DNA from: a bacterium
GTDB lineage: Bacteria > Patescibacteriota > Minisyncoccia > Phycocordibacterales > DATDWN01
Assembly (NCBI GenBank): GCA_037134875.1
Contig: JBAXLH010000005.1
Span: 1 to 58,523 of the forward strand
DNA: 58,523 nucleotides
Direction: 5' to 3'
In this document: in pieces, positions 53,506 to 57,827 of the stretch
How the letters are laid out: every line of letters begins with the position of its first letter
Position numbering within the stretch: the stretch's first letter is position 1
Made by a program: the position numbers and the translations under genes
Notes under the pieces: generated by a model
Told to the model about the DNA's origin: nothing
Database searches by the model: none
What the model saw: the letters and a program-made list of their open reading frames with translations, nothing else

Positions 53506-54534
53506 TTAGAAATTAAAAATAGGTGGCAATACATTGATCACAACCAAACTGTTTATTATTGTGAACACCGCAAAAAATATAACAATGAGTCCGGCACTTT
53601 TGAAAAAGATGCCTGCTTTTGAATTGTTTTTGAAACTAAAAGAGCTGAAACTGACGAGAGCAAGAATAGGCAGTGTACCGAGAGCAAACGTAAGCATAGT
53701 TAGTCCCCCATTCCAGAAATTTCCGACCGAGAGTGTATAAATCTGCATTGATTGAGTAAATCCACACGGTAAGAAAAATGTAACCGCACCAACAAGAAAC
53801 GGAGTGAGACTATGATTGAGTTTGGAAATTCCGAGAGCATGCCGAGAAATAAATTTTGGCATACTTGGCTGAATTTTTTTGGTTATATGAAAAACATCAA
53901 GGAGGTTGAGTCCCATAATGAGCATCACAATGCCTACGATAAATCCCAGAATAAATGTCATCGTTCCATTTAGCTGAAATGCAGAGCCAATAACACCGAT
54001 CACTCCACCGAAAATAAAAAAAGAAATGAGTCGTCCGATATGGAACAAGGACTGCGGTTTAAACTTTTCGCCTTCCTTTGCAAATGTTGCAGACATTGAA
54101 AGCAAGAGTCCACCGACGACAGCCATACAGCTCGAAAGAGACGCGACAACACCAATAAGAAAAATAGAACCAAATGACATATGTTTGCCACTCACAATAT
54201 TCACGAGTCCCAGTTTTTGGAGCAATATAAAAATAACAATAAACGCTAGTGCCACAGGAACGGCAATTTTAAAATCTGAAAAATCTTTTTGCGCCACATC
54301 GAATGGATGAGCAGAAAAAGAATATTTTTGTTCATACAACAAAATAGAAAAATCTTCGGCAATCTTTTCGGCAGGAATTCCTTCAAAATCTCCTGTCACA
54401 GTTACAATCTTTGTATCAAAATTAATCTGAACACCCTCGACATACGAAAGATCAGATAATTCCTTTTCTATAAGTAGAGCACAGGATTTGCAATTCATTC
54501 CCTGCACATAAAATTTATATGTAACACTTTTCAT
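53506..54534 (-). CDS. HMA domain + DsbD_2/TauE-like membrane protein
   Basis: GMNCKSC metal-binding motif; SLSSCMAVVGG; FFLPCGFTQ; LGTLP. Confidence 0.85.
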   Translation of the reverse strand: MKSVTYKFYVQGMNCKSCALLIEKELSDLSYVEGVQINFDTKIVTVTGDFEGIPAEKIAEDFSILLYEQKYSFSAHPFDVAQKDFSDFKIAVPVALAFIVIFILLQKLGLVNIVSGKHMSFGSIFLIGVVASLSSCMAVVGGLLLSMSATFAKEGEKFKPQSLFHIGRLISFFIFGGVIGVIGSAFQLNGTMTFILGFIVGIVMLIMGLNLLDVFHITKKIQPSMPKFISRHALGISKLNHSLTPFLVGAVTFFLPCGFTQSMQIYTLSVGNFWNGGLTMLTFALGTLPILALVSFSSFSFKNNSKAGIFFKSAGLIVIFFAVFTIINSLVVINVLPPIFNF

Positions 54535-54795
54535 TTATTTTCTTTTTAATTTATATACCTTGAGAATTTCATCTTTTGTTGTTTTTTCTTTGCCTTTTTT
54601 TATCTGATCAATAACACACGTATCTAAATGTGACTCCATCAAGGAATCCTCTATACTCGAAAGTGCATTTCTTATTGCTGATGTTTGGGTAATCACATCA
54701 ATACAATATTTTTTCTTTTCTATCATTTCTCTTACTCCTCTCACCTGACCTTCTATAATATGTAATCTTTTTAATAATTTTTCCTGTGTTGTCAT
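54535..54795 (-). CDS. csoR: Copper-sensing repressor, CsoR family
   Basis: RLHIIEGQVRG, YCIDV and SHLDTC (Cys-His-Cys ligands intact). Confidence 0.92.
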   Translation of the reverse strand: MTTQEKLLKRLHIIEGQVRGVREMIEKKKYCIDVITQTSAIRNALSSIEDSLMESHLDTCVIDQIKKGKEKTTKDEILKVYKLKRK

Positions 54796-54834
54796 AATAT
54801 GTAATTATAATATAAAACCCTATATAAAAATAAT

Positions 54835-54868
54835 GGCGCTAGGGACGATCTCTTTTGTCCCTAGCGCC
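54835..54868 (-). terminator. 12-bp perfect hairpin in the csoR leader
   Basis: ggcgctagggac / gtccctagcgcc followed on the minus strand by attattttt. Confidence 0.7.
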
Positions 54869-54872
54869 CGGC

Positions 54873-54932
54873 CTAACAGCCGTTCTGACAGTGAGCAACC
54901 GCTCGCAACATCCAGCGACGTCGAATGTACAT
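54873..54932 (-). CDS. 19-aa CxxxC leader peptide MYIRRRWMLRAVAHCQNGC (not in the ORF track)
   Basis: AAAGGAG SD 9 nt upstream of ATG; directly downstream of the CsoR-operator promoter. Confidence 0.6.
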   Translation of the reverse strand: MYIRRRWMLRAVAHCQNGC

Positions 54933-54956
54933 ATGCTTGCTCTCCTTTCTGTAATT

Positions 54957-54985
54957 ACTATATACCCCTAGGGGGTATATGTCAA
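54957..54985 (-). promoter_or_regulatory. Sigma70 promoter with a CsoR-type operator in the spacer
   Basis: TTGACA-17 nt-TATAGT; palindrome ATATACCCC-TAG-GGGGTATAT at 54960-54980. Confidence 0.9.
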
Positions 54986-55377
54986 AACAACTTATCCACA
55001 ATTTTTTCTAGCTTGAGAGAAAGATACCCAAGAAGTCCGAGCTGGATTGTGGGAGTAAGTCCAGTGCCGAGAAATGGAAGAATCGGCATATACGAGTTAT
55101 ACACCCACATCCCCGTAGCAAGTGCAAACCATTCAATGAAAATTGATATGAGTATACCAACAAAAATAATTATCCAGCTGTGTTTTTGAAAAAAAGATTG
55201 TTTTAAAAACAACACTGACAGTATTGTAATAATGAGAGCATCAATCAGACTTGCTTCAAATAGGACCAGAAAGGTGATATCACCTCCCATATAGTGCGCA
55301 TATAAAAACGAGTGAAAATATTCCCAGACAAGATTGAGAATAAAAGAAATTACAAAAATAGATAAAAATTTTTTCAT
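54982..55377 (-). CDS. Small multi-pass membrane protein
   Basis: Four hydrophobic helices, NLVWEY and IEWFAL...WVY; start at ATG 55377. Confidence 0.7.
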   Translation of the reverse strand: MKKFLSIFVISFILNLVWEYFHSFLYAHYMGGDITFLVLFEASLIDALIITILSVLFLKQSFFQKHSWIIIFVGILISIFIEWFALATGMWVYNSYMPILPFLGTGLTPTIQLGLLGYLSLKLEKIVDKLF

Positions 55378-55445
55378 ACAATAATAGTAGCATATTAAAA
55401 TCGCCTTTCGTTTCCTACTCAGCGATTTATTAGAAATATGCCACC

Positions 55446-55718
55446 TCAATTAATATGAATAGGAACTCTGGCCGTGACAAACTCAGCCACGATCACAGTT
55501 TCTTTTCCGTCACCACTTTTTCCACCTACCAACAAGCCTTCCACGTGTCCGTAGACGACGACTTCCGACTGTCCGTCCGAGAGACGCACAGTACCGAAAT
55601 GAACGACGTCCGGCACATGTCCAGTAAGCCAAAACTTGATGCGGGTGATTGCTCCATCCCACAAAATTTCCTCTCCGACGGGAGTGAAAGTTTGGTTATC
55701 CGCAATGATTAGGTGCAT
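55446..55718 (-). CDS. Small hypothetical protein, visibly GC-rich
   Basis: GAGAGG SD before ATG 55718. Confidence 0.5.
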   Translation of the reverse strand: MHLIIADNQTFTPVGEEILWDGAITRIKFWLTGHVPDVVHFGTVRLSDGQSEVVVYGHVEGLLVGGKSGDGKETVIVAEFVTARVPIHIN

Positions 55719-55780
55719 GGTAACCTCTCTCGACTCATTATACATTAAACACTACAATCAACTAACTTTCTGTGGATATC

Positions 55781-57742
55781 TTATTTCACAGAATCATATG
55801 TGTGTTTATTTATTTTTAAATTATATATTTTGAACACGTTGAATATTGGGAGAAAATCTGTGAGAAAGTTAAAGACTGATGCGCCCACTGGACCAACAAA
55901 CCCTCCAAAGGCCAGAAAGAGGCCTACTCCATTTGTAATTGCCCAAATAACAAAATTTTGTCGAACAATAGAGAGAACTTCTTTACTCAAATAAATTGAC
56001 TCCGGTACTCTGCGCAAATCATCGTGAATGAGTGTAATATCAGACGCTTCAATAGACGCATCAGCGCCTGTTCCTCCCATCGAGAAACTCACATCAGCGA
56101 GAGCAAGTGATGCCGCATCGTTGACACCATCTCCCATCATCGCAATAGCGCCGTGTTTTCTTTTTAATTTTTTGATGTGCTCAAGTTTCTCGGCCGGTTT
56201 CAAGTTTGCATAAAATTCATTGATACCAGTTTCTCTCGCAACACGAGACGCAACCTGCTCATTGTCTCCGGTCAGCATTATCCAATCTTTAACCCCAAGT
56301 GTTTTTGTCTCAGCAATGGCATCGTGTGCATATTTTTTTACTTCGTCCGCAAGTACAAAAAATCCTGCGAGTTTTCCGTCAATTGCAACAGCCGTAATAC
56401 TCGCACCATTTTGTTTTTCCTCCGAAATTTGTTTTGTAACTTCGTGAGAAATCATAACTCCCTTTTGTTCCAAAAACGAAACTCGGCCGTGTAGATATTC
56501 GTGTCCTCCGTGTTTTGCATAGACACCGTCACCTGGATATTCCATTACTTCATCAGGTGAATGGACTTTGACTCCATTTTTTTCGGCATATTGCACAACC
56601 GCTTTTGACATTGGATGTTTTGAATCTATCGAACATATCGCACCGGCGATTACAAATTCGTTTTCAGGTCTTCCGTCCACTGAAACCGCTTTTGAAACTG
56701 CAAACACACCTTTTGTCAGTGTACCCGTTTTGTCCGTAACAAAAATTCGGATATCTTTGAGTCGTTCCATCACCGCCGCACCTTTGACAATAATGCCGTG
56801 TTTGGCAGCTTTTGATATGGCTACCGTAAACCCGAGAGGAATTGCCACCGCAAGATCATCTGCGCAGGTCACAAGCAAAATGCTGAGCACAAGATTTAGA
56901 TTCCTCGTGACAATATAAATAACAAAAACTCCCACAAGTGAGATGAGAATGTACCATGCACTAAATTTGTTTGCCAACGTTTCTGTTTTTGTTTTTGCGC
57001 GACTTGCCTCGTCCACGAGTGCAATCATTTTTGAAAGTGTTGTGTCTTCGCCAACTTTTTCTGCACGAACAAAGAGTGAGCCAGACAAACAGAGTGTAGA
57101 ACTAAGCACCTGACTACCCGGAGTCTTGCTCAGTGGTTTACTTTCGCCAGTGAGAGATGATTCGTCCACCATTGCCTGACCCTTTACAACACTGCCATCA
57201 ATAGGTATCCTGTCGCCCGATTCCACCACAACAACATCACCGACAACAACTTCCTCTAATGTTTTTTCTTTTGTATATTCACCATCCTGAACTCTCACAG
57301 AAACTGGCCGTAGTTTGAGTAGGCTGGAAATAATATGCTCTGTGCGTCTCTCTGTAAATGCTTCAAAAAGTCTCGCCGAGGAAAGCATAAGATTTATAAA
57401 CACAGCTGATACCCATTCGCCCTGAATAATGGTGAACGCAAGTGCAATACTCGCGAGAAGATCTATTGTAATACTCTTTTTTACGAGAGCCCTCACAGCG
57501 CTCCAGACAACAGGAGCAATACCGAGAATAGACACGACGACAATAGATATATTTGAAATCTGCCCCGCAAGTGATGAAAATGAAAACAAATGTAAAACAC
57601 CGAGCCCGTGATAGACGAGTGTAATAAAGAGCAACGCAATGAGACCTTCATTAAAATAAATCTGACGTGTAATCGCTTTGTCATTTTCCTCGGCTTTGAT
57701 CACGACACTTTTTGCCTTTCCTACTGTTTTAATTTTTTCCAT
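55781..57742 (-). CDS. Heavy-metal P1B-type ATPase with a non-canonical CAD transmembrane motif
   Basis: TGES, DKTGT, HP, TGDN and GDGVND motifs; CADDL where CPC is expected; no N-terminal HMA domain. Confidence 0.93.
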   Translation of the reverse strand: MEKIKTVGKAKSVVIKAEENDKAITRQIYFNEGLIALLFITLVYHGLGVLHLFSFSSLAGQISNISIVVVSILGIAPVVWSAVRALVKKSITIDLLASIALAFTIIQGEWVSAVFINLMLSSARLFEAFTERRTEHIISSLLKLRPVSVRVQDGEYTKEKTLEEVVVGDVVVVESGDRIPIDGSVVKGQAMVDESSLTGESKPLSKTPGSQVLSSTLCLSGSLFVRAEKVGEDTTLSKMIALVDEASRAKTKTETLANKFSAWYILISLVGVFVIYIVTRNLNLVLSILLVTCADDLAVAIPLGFTVAISKAAKHGIIVKGAAVMERLKDIRIFVTDKTGTLTKGVFAVSKAVSVDGRPENEFVIAGAICSIDSKHPMSKAVVQYAEKNGVKVHSPDEVMEYPGDGVYAKHGGHEYLHGRVSFLEQKGVMISHEVTKQISEEKQNGASITAVAIDGKLAGFFVLADEVKKYAHDAIAETKTLGVKDWIMLTGDNEQVASRVARETGINEFYANLKPAEKLEHIKKLKRKHGAIAMMGDGVNDAASLALADVSFSMGGTGADASIEASDITLIHDDLRRVPESIYLSKEVLSIVRQNFVIWAITNGVGLFLAFGGFVGPVGASVFNFLTDFLPIFNVFKIYNLKINKHTYDSVK

Positions 57743-57796: not shown

Positions 57797-57820
57797 AAAC
57801 CGGACACCGAAGTGCCCGAT
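57797..57820 (-). terminator. UUCG-loop intrinsic terminator
   Basis: cgggcac-ttcg-gtgtccg followed by gttttt. Confidence 0.75.
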
Positions 57821-57827
57821 TAGACAT

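What the first reader, a model, noticed from the sequence alone, without database searches (positions are those of the whole stretch)
55781..57742. P1B-ATPase with an unrecognised CAD(D) metal-site motif
The helix before DKTGT reads LLVTCADDLAVAIP. Established P1B subclasses have CPC, CPH, SPC, PCP, SCA or CSC here, and even the proline is missing. The last helix has NFLTDF and there is no N-terminal metal-binding domain. Acidic ligands suggest a harder cation (Mn, Fe, Mg or Ca) or a new subclass. All catalytic motifs are intact.
Basis: partly seen in the sequence, partly recalled or inferred. Interest (0 to 1): 0.62.

Follow-up and report, generated by a model that had tools for sequence, protein, structure and literature searches.

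The report
CADD-motif P1B ion pump clade
This is an intact ATP-driven ion pump of the heavy-metal (P1B) type from an ultra-small CPR bacterium; in it and about 150 relatives the usual Cys-Pro-Cys sulfur site is replaced by an oxygen-rich site laid out like that of calcium pumps, which marks an undescribed pump subclass with an untested cargo.

Summary
ORF 55781-57742 (-) encodes a 653-aa P-type ATPase with all catalytic motifs, eight TM helices and no metal-binding domain. M4 reads C293-A-D-D and M6 reads N625-F-L-T-D.

The motif is not an error. Of 148 full-length homologs (33-70% identity; every source-named one is a Patescibacteria/CPR or unclassified-bacterium MAG), 144 have CADD and the other four have near variants. 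D295, N604, N625 and D629 are invariant.

Trees make the family one clade (100/99 support) outside P1B-1, -2, -3, -4 and -6. Its nearest relatives are the CSC/'GAC' groups, but P1B-5 cannot be rejected as sister.

Profile alignment puts D295, N604, N625, T628, D629 and P632 on the Glu, Asn, Asn, Thr, Asp and Pro that form Ca2+ site II in P2 Ca-ATPases. The most likely function is export of a hard or borderline divalent cation (Ca2+/Mn2+ first, then Fe2+/Zn2+). The substrate is untested.

Gene context is not conserved, and the nearby CsoR operator does not serve this gene. The pump co-occurs with CopA at background rate and is weakly complementary to P2-type pumps.

No paper describing the motif was found. 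This scan has reported the same family before on other genomes (three follow-ups, a dozen notes).

The parts
55781..57742 (-). Complete gene for the 653-aa CADD-motif P1B-type ATPase (stop codon included)
   Evidence: TIGR01525 scores 491.7 bits against a cut-off of 346. The AF2 model has pLDDT 88.3 and pTM 0.84. The best Foldseek hits are CopA, ATP7B, sCoaT, ZntA and HMA4.
57482..57706 (-). N-terminal pair of extra helices (MA/MB, residues 13-87) typical of P1B pumps; no soluble metal-binding domain precedes them
   Evidence: Hydropathy, AF2 helices 13-49 and 58-87, and no HMA hit in Pfam.
57140..57151 (-). TGES dephosphorylation motif of the actuator domain
   Evidence: T198 is at least 90% conserved, and G199 and E200 are invariant in A1.
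56834..56878 (-). M4 ion-site helix LLVTCADDLAVAIPL. C293-A294-D295-D296 replaces C-P-C-A. D295 and P302 are invariant.
   Evidence: AF2 predicts the helix broken at residues 292-294 despite the missing proline.
56720..56734 (-). DKTGT phosphorylation motif (D337)
   Evidence: Invariant in A1.
56612..56617 (-). His-Pro motif of the P1B-type nucleotide-binding domain
   Evidence: H376 is invariant and P377 is at least 90% conserved.
56261..56272 (-). TGDN motif of the P domain
56117..56134 (-). GDGVND hinge motif
55907..55969 (-). M5 helix with invariant W600, N604 and G607. N604 sits at the position of CopA N(YN), ZntA K693 and the P2 'SSN(I/V)GE' Asn.
55820..55891 (-). M6 helix with N625-F-L-T628-D629-F-L-P632. 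N625, F626 and D629 are invariant.
   Evidence: hhalign places it on 'N-L-x-T-D-G-L-P' of P2A Ca-ATPases. AF2 predicts a helix kink at D629.
57798..57821 (-). Terminator-like hairpin of the preceding small gene. The ATPase therefore has its own A/T-rich upstream region, and that region has no CsoR operator.

Best explanation
The gene encodes a working P-type ATPase on the P1B (heavy-metal pump) scaffold. It belongs to a distinct, so far unnamed clade found in Patescibacteria/CPR genomes. In this clade the thiophilic Cys-Pro-Cys site has been rebuilt into a single oxygen-rich site. The site comprises Cys293/Asp295/Asp296 on the unwound part of M4, Asn604 on M5, and Asn625/Thr628/Asp629 on M6. 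Position for position, these residues copy Ca2+ site II of P2-type pumps (Glu of PEGL, Asn of M5, Asn-x-x-Thr-Asp-x-x-Pro of M6). The second P2 site is absent, because Gly stands where Glu771 would be and there is no M8. Shown here: the intact catalytic machinery, the P1B fold, the invariance of the site and the separate clade. Inferred: the pump exports one hard or borderline divalent cation per cycle from the cytoplasm. The leading candidates are Ca2+ and/or Mn2+, followed by Fe2+ or Zn2+. The three carboxylates are probably re-protonated on the return half-cycle, since there is no built-in Lys/Arg counter-charge. It is a stand-alone gene with its own upstream region, not a member of the neighbouring CsoR copper regulon.
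For: - **Family membership and fold.** TIGR01525 passes its cut-off and all catalytic motifs are intact. The AF2 model has pLDDT 88 and its best structural matches are CopA, ATP7B, sCoaT, ZntA and HMA4.
- **Motif conservation.** CADD and NFxTD are fixed in 144-148 of 148 relatives down to 33% identity. D295, N604, N625 and D629 are invariant.
- **Phylogeny.** The clade is monophyletic with 100* support in FastTree, 99* in quick IQ-TREE and 100/99 in careful IQ-TREE, on a stem of 0.23-0.38.
- **Unique signature.** The site-position table shows a combination found in no other P1B group.
- **Match to P2 pumps.** hhalign against nine CPR P2A pumps aligns D295 with the Glu of PEGL, N604 with the M5 Asn, and N625/T628/D629/P632 with N/T/D/P of NLxTDGLP. 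Those P2A pumps themselves match SPCA1, LMCA1 and SERCA at E 1e-171 to 1e-145. Palmgren 2023 (PMC10654040) states that the TM6 Asp is omnipresent in Ca2+ efflux pumps.
- **Co-occurrence.** CopA-type pumps co-occur at background rate, 8/13 against 99/188. P2-type pumps are under-represented in CADD genomes, 6/15 against 128/186 with p=0.04. Among ATP-synthase-less genomes the split is 6:1 against 29:68, p=0.006.
- **Regulation.** No CsoR operator precedes the gene.
Against: - **No direct data.** No biochemical, regulatory or riboswitch evidence for any substrate was found: Rfam finds nothing near 12 family loci, and the neighbours differ in all five other loci examined.
- **The retained Cys.** The near-invariant Cys293 argues for a metal with some thiol affinity (Zn2+, Fe2+, Co2+) rather than pure Ca2+/Mg2+.
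- **Relatives.** The nearest relatives (CSC, 'GAC' and PCP groups) are transition-metal-type pumps, and they already share the M6 acidic residue.
- **Weak co-occurrence signal.** The P2 complementarity is post hoc and uncorrected for relatedness. It is absent outside the order, where 5 of 6 CADD genomes also have P2-type pumps.
- **Existing Ca2+ route.** The window's own genome already has a CaCA-family Ca2+/cation antiporter.
- **Limits of the model.** Side-chain geometry of the AF2 model could not be inspected.
Confidence: 0.6

Rival explanations
1. It is still an ordinary thiophilic heavy-metal exporter (Zn2+/Cd2+ as databases annotate it, or Cu+). The CADD change only tunes affinity. In this genome it would be the copper exporter that the adjacent CsoR/HMA locus lacks.
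For: TIGR01512 (Cd family) passes its cut-off at 395 against 313 bits, and sources name relatives 'Cd2+/Zn2+-exporting ATPase'. One Cys is retained. ZntA also mixes Cys and Asp ligands. The gene lies about 800 bp upstream of a CsoR operator and a csoR/HMA-DsbD_2 operon, and the genome has no CopA.
Against: Only one thiol remains, and the M5 Lys and M6 Asp-x-Gly of P1B-2 and the YN/MxxSS of P1B-1 are all absent. TIGR01511 scores below its cut-off. No CsoR operator precedes the gene, and a terminator separates it from upstream genes. CsoR/HMA neighbours are absent in five other loci. CopA-type pumps co-occur with CADD pumps at background frequency, which argues for a different job.
Confidence: 0.15
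2. It pumps H+ or a monovalent cation and helps energise the membrane, using D629 as P3-type H+-ATPases use their TM6 Asp. In this genome it would be the only primary ion pump.
For: The genome has no F/V-type ATPase alpha/beta subunit and no other P-type ATPase. The TM6 Asp is the H+ acceptor in P3A pumps (PMC10654040). The site carries three carboxylates.
Against: CADD presence shows no association with loss of the ATP synthase: 8/15 CADD genomes keep it, against 48% overall. There is no M5 Arg/Lys to control the pKa. The scaffold and all relatives are metal pumps.
Confidence: 0.1
3. It is not a transporter of a free ion at all. It could be a regulatory or sensor ATPase, or a pump for an organic cation such as a polyamine attracted by the acidic site.
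For: No substrate evidence of any kind exists. One order-level relative (G352) has lost the catalytic Asp while staying an open frame, which shows the scaffold can be kept without pumping.
Against: All catalytic and site residues are under strong conservation in the other roughly 150 members. The predicted M4 unwinding and the M5/M6 geometry are those of ion pumps.
Confidence: 0.05

Closest known systems
CSC-motif P1B ATPases (the motif that defines P1B-7 in Smith et al. 2014, as summarised in PMC13460109), with their CAC and CPC relatives and the 'GAC' group
   Same: This is the best-supported neighbouring clade: 93 in FastTree, 96* in quick IQ-TREE and 98/96 in careful IQ-TREE. Most members lack the central M4 proline and share the M5 Asn. 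The CSC/CAC/CPC branch has Asp at the M6 -6 position and the 'GAC' pair has Glu there. The group is uncharacterised.
   Different: M4 reads C-S-C-(S/A) rather than C-A-D-D. M6 reads Q-S-P-D rather than N-F-T-D. These groups keep two thiols. The CADD proteins form their own clade on a long stem.
P1B-5 ATPases (PCP/TPCP motif; Sinorhizobium Nia, Ni2+/Fe2+)
   Same: They share an M6 Asp at the same position (Q-E-x-D). A constrained tree that joins them to the CADD clade is not rejected (AU p=0.80). They occur in the same CPR genomes (L101, L102, L104).
   Different: M4 reads T-P-C-P with the proline kept and no acidic residue. M5 has Ser rather than Asn. They were not sister to the CADD clade in any of the three free tree searches.
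P2-type Ca2+(/Mn2+) ATPases (SERCA, SPCA1, Listeria LMCA1, and the CPR P2A pumps L108-L117)
   Same: The ion-site residues coincide column for column: Glu of PEGL with D295, the M5 Asn with N604, and N-x-x-T-D-x-x-P of M6. This is a works-like resemblance.
   Different: The topology differs (10 TM, no MA/MB) and the N-domain lacks the HP motif. The M4 proline is present. A second site (Glu771, Glu908) has no counterpart here. Full-length similarity is far lower than to P1B pumps. The CADD family is not a member.
P1B-2 Zn2+/Cd2+/Pb2+ ATPases (E. coli ZntA)
   Same: The scaffold is the same and the site mixes Cys and Asp. The TIGR01512 model passes its cut-off.
   Different: ZntA has CPC, an M5 Lys and an M6 Asp four residues earlier. 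It falls in a separate clade beyond a 99* branch.
P1B-6 ATPases (FezB of ferrosomes; D[Y/F]SCA and HNxxT motifs; bioRxiv 10.1101/2020.01.10.902569)
   Same: They lack an N-terminal metal-binding domain, have a non-CPC M4 and are suspected to carry a harder metal (Fe2+).
   Different: The motifs differ. The P1B-6-like rows (P0212, P0264) cluster with CtpC-like pumps in a separate 100* clade.

Membership tests
P-type ATPase superfamily | DKTGT phosphorylation site, TGES, TGDN and GDGxND motifs; E1-E2_ATPase plus HAD domains | tested here: met
P1B (heavy-metal) ATPases | Curated family model TIGR01525 above its cut-off | tested here: met
   491.7 bits against 346.25.
P1B (heavy-metal) ATPases | Eight TM helices with two extra N-terminal helices (MA/MB), and an HP motif in the N-domain | tested here: met
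   Hydropathy, AF2 helices, best Foldseek hits all P1B, and H376 invariant with P377 at least 90% conserved.
P1B (heavy-metal) ATPases | Cys-containing CPx/xPC-type tripeptide in M4 | tested here: not met
   C-A-D stands at the aligned position. One Cys is kept and there is no Pro.
P1B-1 (Cu+/Ag+; includes former P1B-3) | CPC (or CPH) in M4, Y-N in M5, M-x-x-S-S in M6; TIGR01511 above its cut-off | tested here: not met
   Site table. TIGR01511 scores 346 against a cut-off of 397. Separate clade.
P1B-2 (Zn2+/Cd2+/Pb2+) | CPC in M4, Lys in M5, Asp-x-Gly in M6 | tested here: not met
   N604 stands at the Lys position and N625 at the Asp position. Separate clade. TIGR01512 nevertheless passes at 395 against 313 bits.
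P1B-4 (Co2+/Ni2+/Fe2+/Zn2+) | SPC in M4, H-E-G-x-T in M6 | tested here: not met
   Separate clade.
P1B-5 (Ni2+/Fe2+) | PCP (TPCP) in M4; Q-E-x-x-D in M6 | tested here: inconclusive
   The motifs are not met except for the shared M6 Asp. Free trees place the family elsewhere, but a sister relation is not rejected (AU p=0.80).
P1B-6 (FezB-type) | D[Y/F]SCA in M4 and HNxxT in M6 (bioRxiv 10.1101/2020.01.10.902569) | tested here: not met
   The P1B-6-like rows fall in another 100* clade.
P1B-7 | CSC in M4 (PMC13460109) | tested here: not met
   The motif is CAD. The CSC clade is the neighbour, not the parent, of the CADD clade.
P2A/P2B Ca2+-ATPases | PEGL in M4, 10 TM helices, N-x-x-(T/M)-D in M6; TIGR01116/01517/01522 above their cut-offs | tested here: not met
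   These models score only 96-117 bits against cut-offs of 507-798, and the protein has 8 TM helices. The M6 pattern and an acidic residue at the PEGL Glu position are met, so the resemblance is functional, not membership.

The most novel reading that the evidence does not exclude
The CADD clade is a calcium (or Ca2+/Mn2+) pump built on the heavy-metal P1B scaffold. It would be an independent re-invention of the P2-type site II, and the first P1B ATPase whose physiological substrate is an alkaline-earth or hard cation. In ATP-synthase-less CPR genomes it would stand in for the missing P2-type pump.
Probability: 0.25. Interest if true: 0.8.

Novelty: new variant of a known kind. Interest (0 to 1): 0.6.

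Why it matters
P1B pumps are sorted into seven subclasses by their M4/M5/M6 signatures, and those signatures are used to predict metal specificity in genome annotation. This clade has an invariant signature (C-A-D-D / N / N-x-x-T-D) that fits none of the seven. Databases nevertheless label its members 'Cd2+/Zn2+-exporting' or 'cation-translocating'.

If the site really selects a hard cation, the heavy-metal scaffold has converged on the ion-site chemistry of Ca2+ pumps. That would give a natural experiment on how P-type ATPases set selectivity. It would also show how M4 can unwind without its proline.

The finding also bears on ion homeostasis in CPR bacteria with minimal genomes. Here the pump is the only P-type ATPase, and no CDF, Nramp, ZIP, ZnuA, MgtE, TerC or ATP synthase was found.

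The case is directly testable by expression in standard laboratory strains.

Tried and rejected
- **Genome-collection scan.** The scan with the family profile was swamped by the generic GDGVNDA pattern and returned only two CADD loci. The other loci were reused as reference P1B pumps.
- **PDB search with M5-M6 alone.** It gave only a spurious LRR hit.
- **Synteny.** Five other loci have unrelated housekeeping neighbours, so there is no guilt by association.
- **Copper regulation.** The CsoR operator TACCCCCTAGGGGTA occurs once, downstream of the gene and before csoR. The copper-regulon reading was rejected.
- **Riboswitches.** Rfam at gathering thresholds found only one tRNA across 12 family loci.
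- **Replacement of CopA.** Rejected, because the two co-occur at background rate.
- **Replacement of the ATP synthase (H+ pump).** No association was found.
- **Replacement of CDF exporters.** CDFs are rare everywhere in the order.
- **Replication of the P2 complementarity.** The attempt failed because the smaller draw was a subset of the first sample.
- **Cluster look-up of divergent members.** It gave no taxon names.
- **Literature.** Smith et al. 2014 (PMC4119550) is not held, so its motif definitions were taken from later papers.
- **Quick tree search.** It missed a slightly better topology. The careful search and the AU test therefore leave the exact sister group open.
Full report
**Observation**

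The window carries an uninterrupted 653-codon frame at 55781-57742 on the minus strand. Pfam finds E1-E2_ATPase and the HAD hydrolase domain and nothing else. NCBIfam places the protein in TIGR01525, heavy-metal P-type ATPase, at 491.7 bits against a cut-off of 346. TIGR01512 (Cd family) also passes, while the copper model TIGR01511 fails at 346 against 397 bits.

TGES (198), DKTGT (337), HP (376), TGDN (491) and GDGVND (537) are all present. A294 lies 43 residues before the phosphorylated Asp, the register of the conserved M4 proline (my knowledge of SERCA P308/D351 and LpCopA P383/D426). The phmmer alignment to A. fulgidus CopA puts C-A-D directly under C-P-C.

Hydropathy and the AlphaFold2 model give eight membrane helices. 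Two of them are the extra N-terminal pair, and there is no soluble N-terminal domain.

**Is it real?**

All 120 best homologs in the 5.8-billion-protein collection (46-70% identity) keep the motif. In the exhaustive search of 50%-identity representatives, the motif persists down to about 33-36% identity and about 350 bits. Canonical CPC proteins first appear at about 375 bits and are interleaved with the most divergent CADD members.

Of 148 full-length members, 144 read CADD, 2 CADE, 1 AADD and 1 CIDE, and all carry N-F-x-(T/S/M)-D in M6. In a 55-sequence alignment (A1) the invariant membrane residues are M119, L290, D295, P302, W600, N604, G607, N625, F626 and D629. C293, A294, D296, T628 and P632 are at least 90% conserved. 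A sequencing error is excluded.

**Fold**

AlphaFold2 with A1 gives pLDDT 88.3 and pTM 0.84. M4 is predicted to be broken at residues 292-294 although no proline is there, and M6 is kinked at D629. Foldseek against the PDB returns copper pumps (4bbj, 7r0g, ATP7B, and HMA4 at TM 0.84), the P1B-4 pump 7qbz and ZntA first. KdpB and the P2/P3 pumps come well behind.

**Where it sits among P1B pumps**

I built trees from three sources: CADD members, the non-CADD representatives, and reference pumps from named genomes. E. coli CopA, ZntA and KdpB were included, and E. coli MgtA was in the 236-row FastTree set only.

- The CADD proteins are one clade in FastTree (236 rows, 100*), quick IQ-TREE (95 rows, 99*) and careful IQ-TREE with LG+C20 PMSF (100/99), on a stem of 0.23-0.38 substitutions per site.
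- They are not nested in the P1B-1/CPH/CPD, P1B-2, P1B-4, CPG or P1B-6/CtpC clades.
- The free searches group them with the CSC/CAC/'(Q/H)xPD' pumps and a small 'GAC' group (support 93, 96* and 98/96).
- A tree constrained to join them with the PCP (P1B-5) pumps is not worse (AU p=0.80), so the exact sister is unresolved.
- All these candidate relatives share an acidic residue at the M6 position of D629, and several also lack the M4 proline.

The site table from the big alignment shows that the CADD combination is unique. At positions 293-296 / 603-604 / 625, 626, 628, 629, the CADD family reads C-A-D-D / t-N / N-F-T-D. The other groups read:

| Group | M4 (293-296) | M5 (603-604) | M6 (625, 626, 628, 629) |
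|---|---|---|---|
| CopA | C-P-C-A | Y-N | M-A-S-S |
| ZntA | C-P-C-A | L-K | D-T-A-T |
| P1B-4 | S-P-C-A | v-I | H-E-S-T |
| P1B-5 | T-P-C-P | L-S | Q-E-x-D |
| CSC group | C-S-C-s | Y-N | Q-S-P-D |

**The site looks like a calcium-pump site**

SERCA-model searches of the phylum gave P2-type pumps of about 900 aa. Nine full-length examples (A2) have IPEGLP/VPEALP in M4, SSN(I/L)GE in M5 and (W/Y)(I/V)NLxTDGLPA in M6. Their best solved relatives are SPCA1 (E 1.6e-171), Listeria LMCA1 and SERCA.

Profile-profile alignment of A1 against A2 (probability 100%, 535 columns) aligns the site residues as follows:

- D295 with the Glu of PEGL
- N604 with the M5 Asn
- G607 with the M5 Glu
- N625, T628, D629 and P632 with the N, T, D and P of N-L-x-T-D-G-L-P

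By established knowledge of SERCA, these are E309, N768, E771, N796, T799 and D800. Site II is made from E309, N796, D800 and M4 backbone carbonyls, and it is the only site used by SPCA, PMCA and LMCA1. Palmgren (PMC10654040) notes that the TM6 Asp is omnipresent in Ca2+ efflux pumps and that TM4 is normally broken by proline.

The CADD family therefore carries a site-II-like, oxygen-rich single site on a P1B scaffold, with two additions: Cys293 and a second carboxylate, D296. This is a resemblance in how the site would work, not membership. The P2 family models score only 96-117 bits.

**Context and regulation**

On the same strand, downstream of the ATPase, lie:

- a 99-aa ORF and a 155-aa membrane ORF, both without a family;
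- a perfect CsoR operator TACCCCCTAGGGGTA at 54963-54977;
- csoR, with the C31/H56/C60 Cu(I) fingerprint;
- an HMA-DsbD_2 fusion.

The operator occurs only there. The ATPase is preceded by the terminator of the upstream small gene and an A/T-rich region with no operator. In five other family loci the neighbours are unrelated housekeeping genes. Rfam finds no riboswitch near 12 family loci. The copper context is therefore local coincidence, or at most a loose metal island.

**Genome-level evidence**

The window's genome (771 kb, 18 contigs, 100% marker completeness) has this one P-type ATPase only. It has a CaCA antiporter and CorA. No CDF, Nramp, MgtE, TerC, ZnuA, ZIP or F/V-ATPase catalytic subunit was found.

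The family is patchy. About 5 of 301 sampled genomes of the phylum carry it. In the window's own order, 15 of 201 sampled genomes do, in at least 13 different families, plus one catalytically dead relative.

| Feature in the order sample | CADD genomes | Other genomes | Fisher p |
|---|---|---|---|
| CopA-type pump | 8/13 | 99/188 | 0.58 |
| CDF | 2/13 | 18/188 | 0.62 |
| ATP synthase | 8/15 | 89/186 | not tested |
| P2-type pump | 6/15 | 128/186 | 0.04 |

(The CopA and CDF rows use the 13 hits above 380 bits, counted before G328 and G353 were confirmed as CADD-type.)

CopA, CDF and ATP synthase are all at background. P2-type pumps are less frequent in CADD genomes. Among the 104 genomes without ATP synthase, CADD pumps sit almost only in those that also lack a P2-type pump: 6 of 35 against 1 of 69, p=0.006, and the six genomes come from six families.

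This pattern was found post hoc and is not corrected for relatedness. It could not be replicated because the smaller draw was a subset of the first sample. Outside the order, 5 of 6 CADD genomes also have P2-type pumps. I treat it as a weak hint that the CADD pump overlaps in function with the P2-type pump, and as fair evidence that it does not duplicate CopA.

**Interpretation**

Shown here: an intact pump, the P1B fold, an invariant non-canonical site, a separate clade, and no link to the CsoR regulon.

Inferred: export of a hard or borderline divalent cation. My rough split is:

- Ca2+ and/or Mn2+: about 35%
- Fe2+, Zn2+ or Co2+: about 30%. These are favoured by the retained Cys and by the transition-metal relatives.
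- Soft metals: about 10-15%
- H+ or a monovalent cation: about 10%
- Something else: the remainder

The lack of an M5 Lys/Arg suggests proton counter-transport, as in SERCA (inference).

**Literature**

Reviews up to 2026 list seven subclasses with the motifs CPC, CPH, SPC, PCP, SCA and CSC (PMC13460109; PMC7558416). P1B-6 is defined by D[Y/F]SCA and HNxxT (bioRxiv 10.1101/2020.01.10.902569). No paper combining 'CADD motif' or 'CAD motif' with P-type ATPase was found, and nothing specific turned up for Patescibacteria. Smith et al. 2014 itself could not be read.

**Earlier notes of this scan**

The same family has been flagged on at least a dozen other genomes. It has been followed up three times (e1-805477, e1-5097367, e1-722821) with the same core conclusion. 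My work adds five things:

- the explicit profile alignment to P2 pumps;
- the AU test, which shows that neither P1B-5 nor the CSC group can yet be called the sister;
- the regulon check;
- the co-occurrence tables;
- the dead relative.

**Verdict**

This is a real, conserved, literature-undescribed variant of the P1B pump family with a Ca-pump-like ion site. The substrate is unknown. Interest is moderate to high because the question is directly testable.

Noticed in passing
window 53506-54977 (-): A perfect CsoR operator (TACCCCCTAGGGGTA, 54963-54977) precedes csoR (54535-54795, with the C31/H56/C60 Cu(I) fingerprint) and a 342-aa HMA-DsbD_2 membrane fusion (53506-54534). The genome nevertheless has no CopA-type pump, so this is a copper-sensing regulon without a canonical copper exporter.
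   Followed up: partly
window 54982-55745 (-): Two small ORFs lie between the ATPase and the csoR promoter: 99 aa at 55446-55745 and a 155-aa multi-TM protein at 54982-55449. The 155-aa protein has no Pfam or NCBIfam hit. Neither ORF is seen next to CADD pumps elsewhere.
   Followed up: partly
L131 (G352:C44:14500-16500), same order: This is a catalytically dead relative of the CADD pump kept as a 625-aa open frame. It reads NKTGT for DKTGT, TGRL for TGES, GNGIND for GDGVND, CVDD for CADD and NFTTN for NFxTD.
   Followed up: partly
own genome G000 (all 18 contigs): No F/V-type ATPase catalytic subunit (PF00006) was found in a genome scored 100% complete. The same holds for 104 of 201 sampled genomes of the order, and 35 of those also lack any P2-type pump. 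How these cells energise their membrane is unclear.
   Followed up: partly
P0202, P0268 (representative proteins): A small, long-branched pair of P1B-like pumps has S-P-(I/L)-E in M4 (no Cys at the third position, Glu at the fourth), His in M5 and H-A-(P/S)-D in M6. It is another unclassified acidic-site variant. It was sister to the CADD clade in FastTree only.
   Followed up: partly
P0256, L037 (Hyphomicrobiales MAG): A 'GAC' group reads A-G-A-C-G in M4 and H-V-x-S-E in M6. It has no proline and only one Cys, and it groups weakly (84/41) with the CADD clade.
   Followed up: no
L015_b, L060_b, L065, L082 (Chloroflexia, Propioniciclava, Haliangiales, Mycolicibacterium): A C-P-D motif group sits inside the CopB/CPH branch of the copper pumps. 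This is an Asp at the third motif position with the proline kept and a methionine/serine M6.
   Followed up: no
G143:C1:153769-155544 (same order): The CADD homolog in this genome shows two in-frame TGA codons inside the match. It could be a pseudogene, an assembly error or recoding. This was not examined.
   Followed up: no
L087 3277-4929 and L090 4439-5997: In two of the five other loci examined, an ABC_tran plus ABC2_membrane transporter pair lies upstream of the CADD pump gene on the same strand: directly adjacent in L090, and about 1 kb upstream with two small genes between in L087. This may be coincidence.
   Followed up: no
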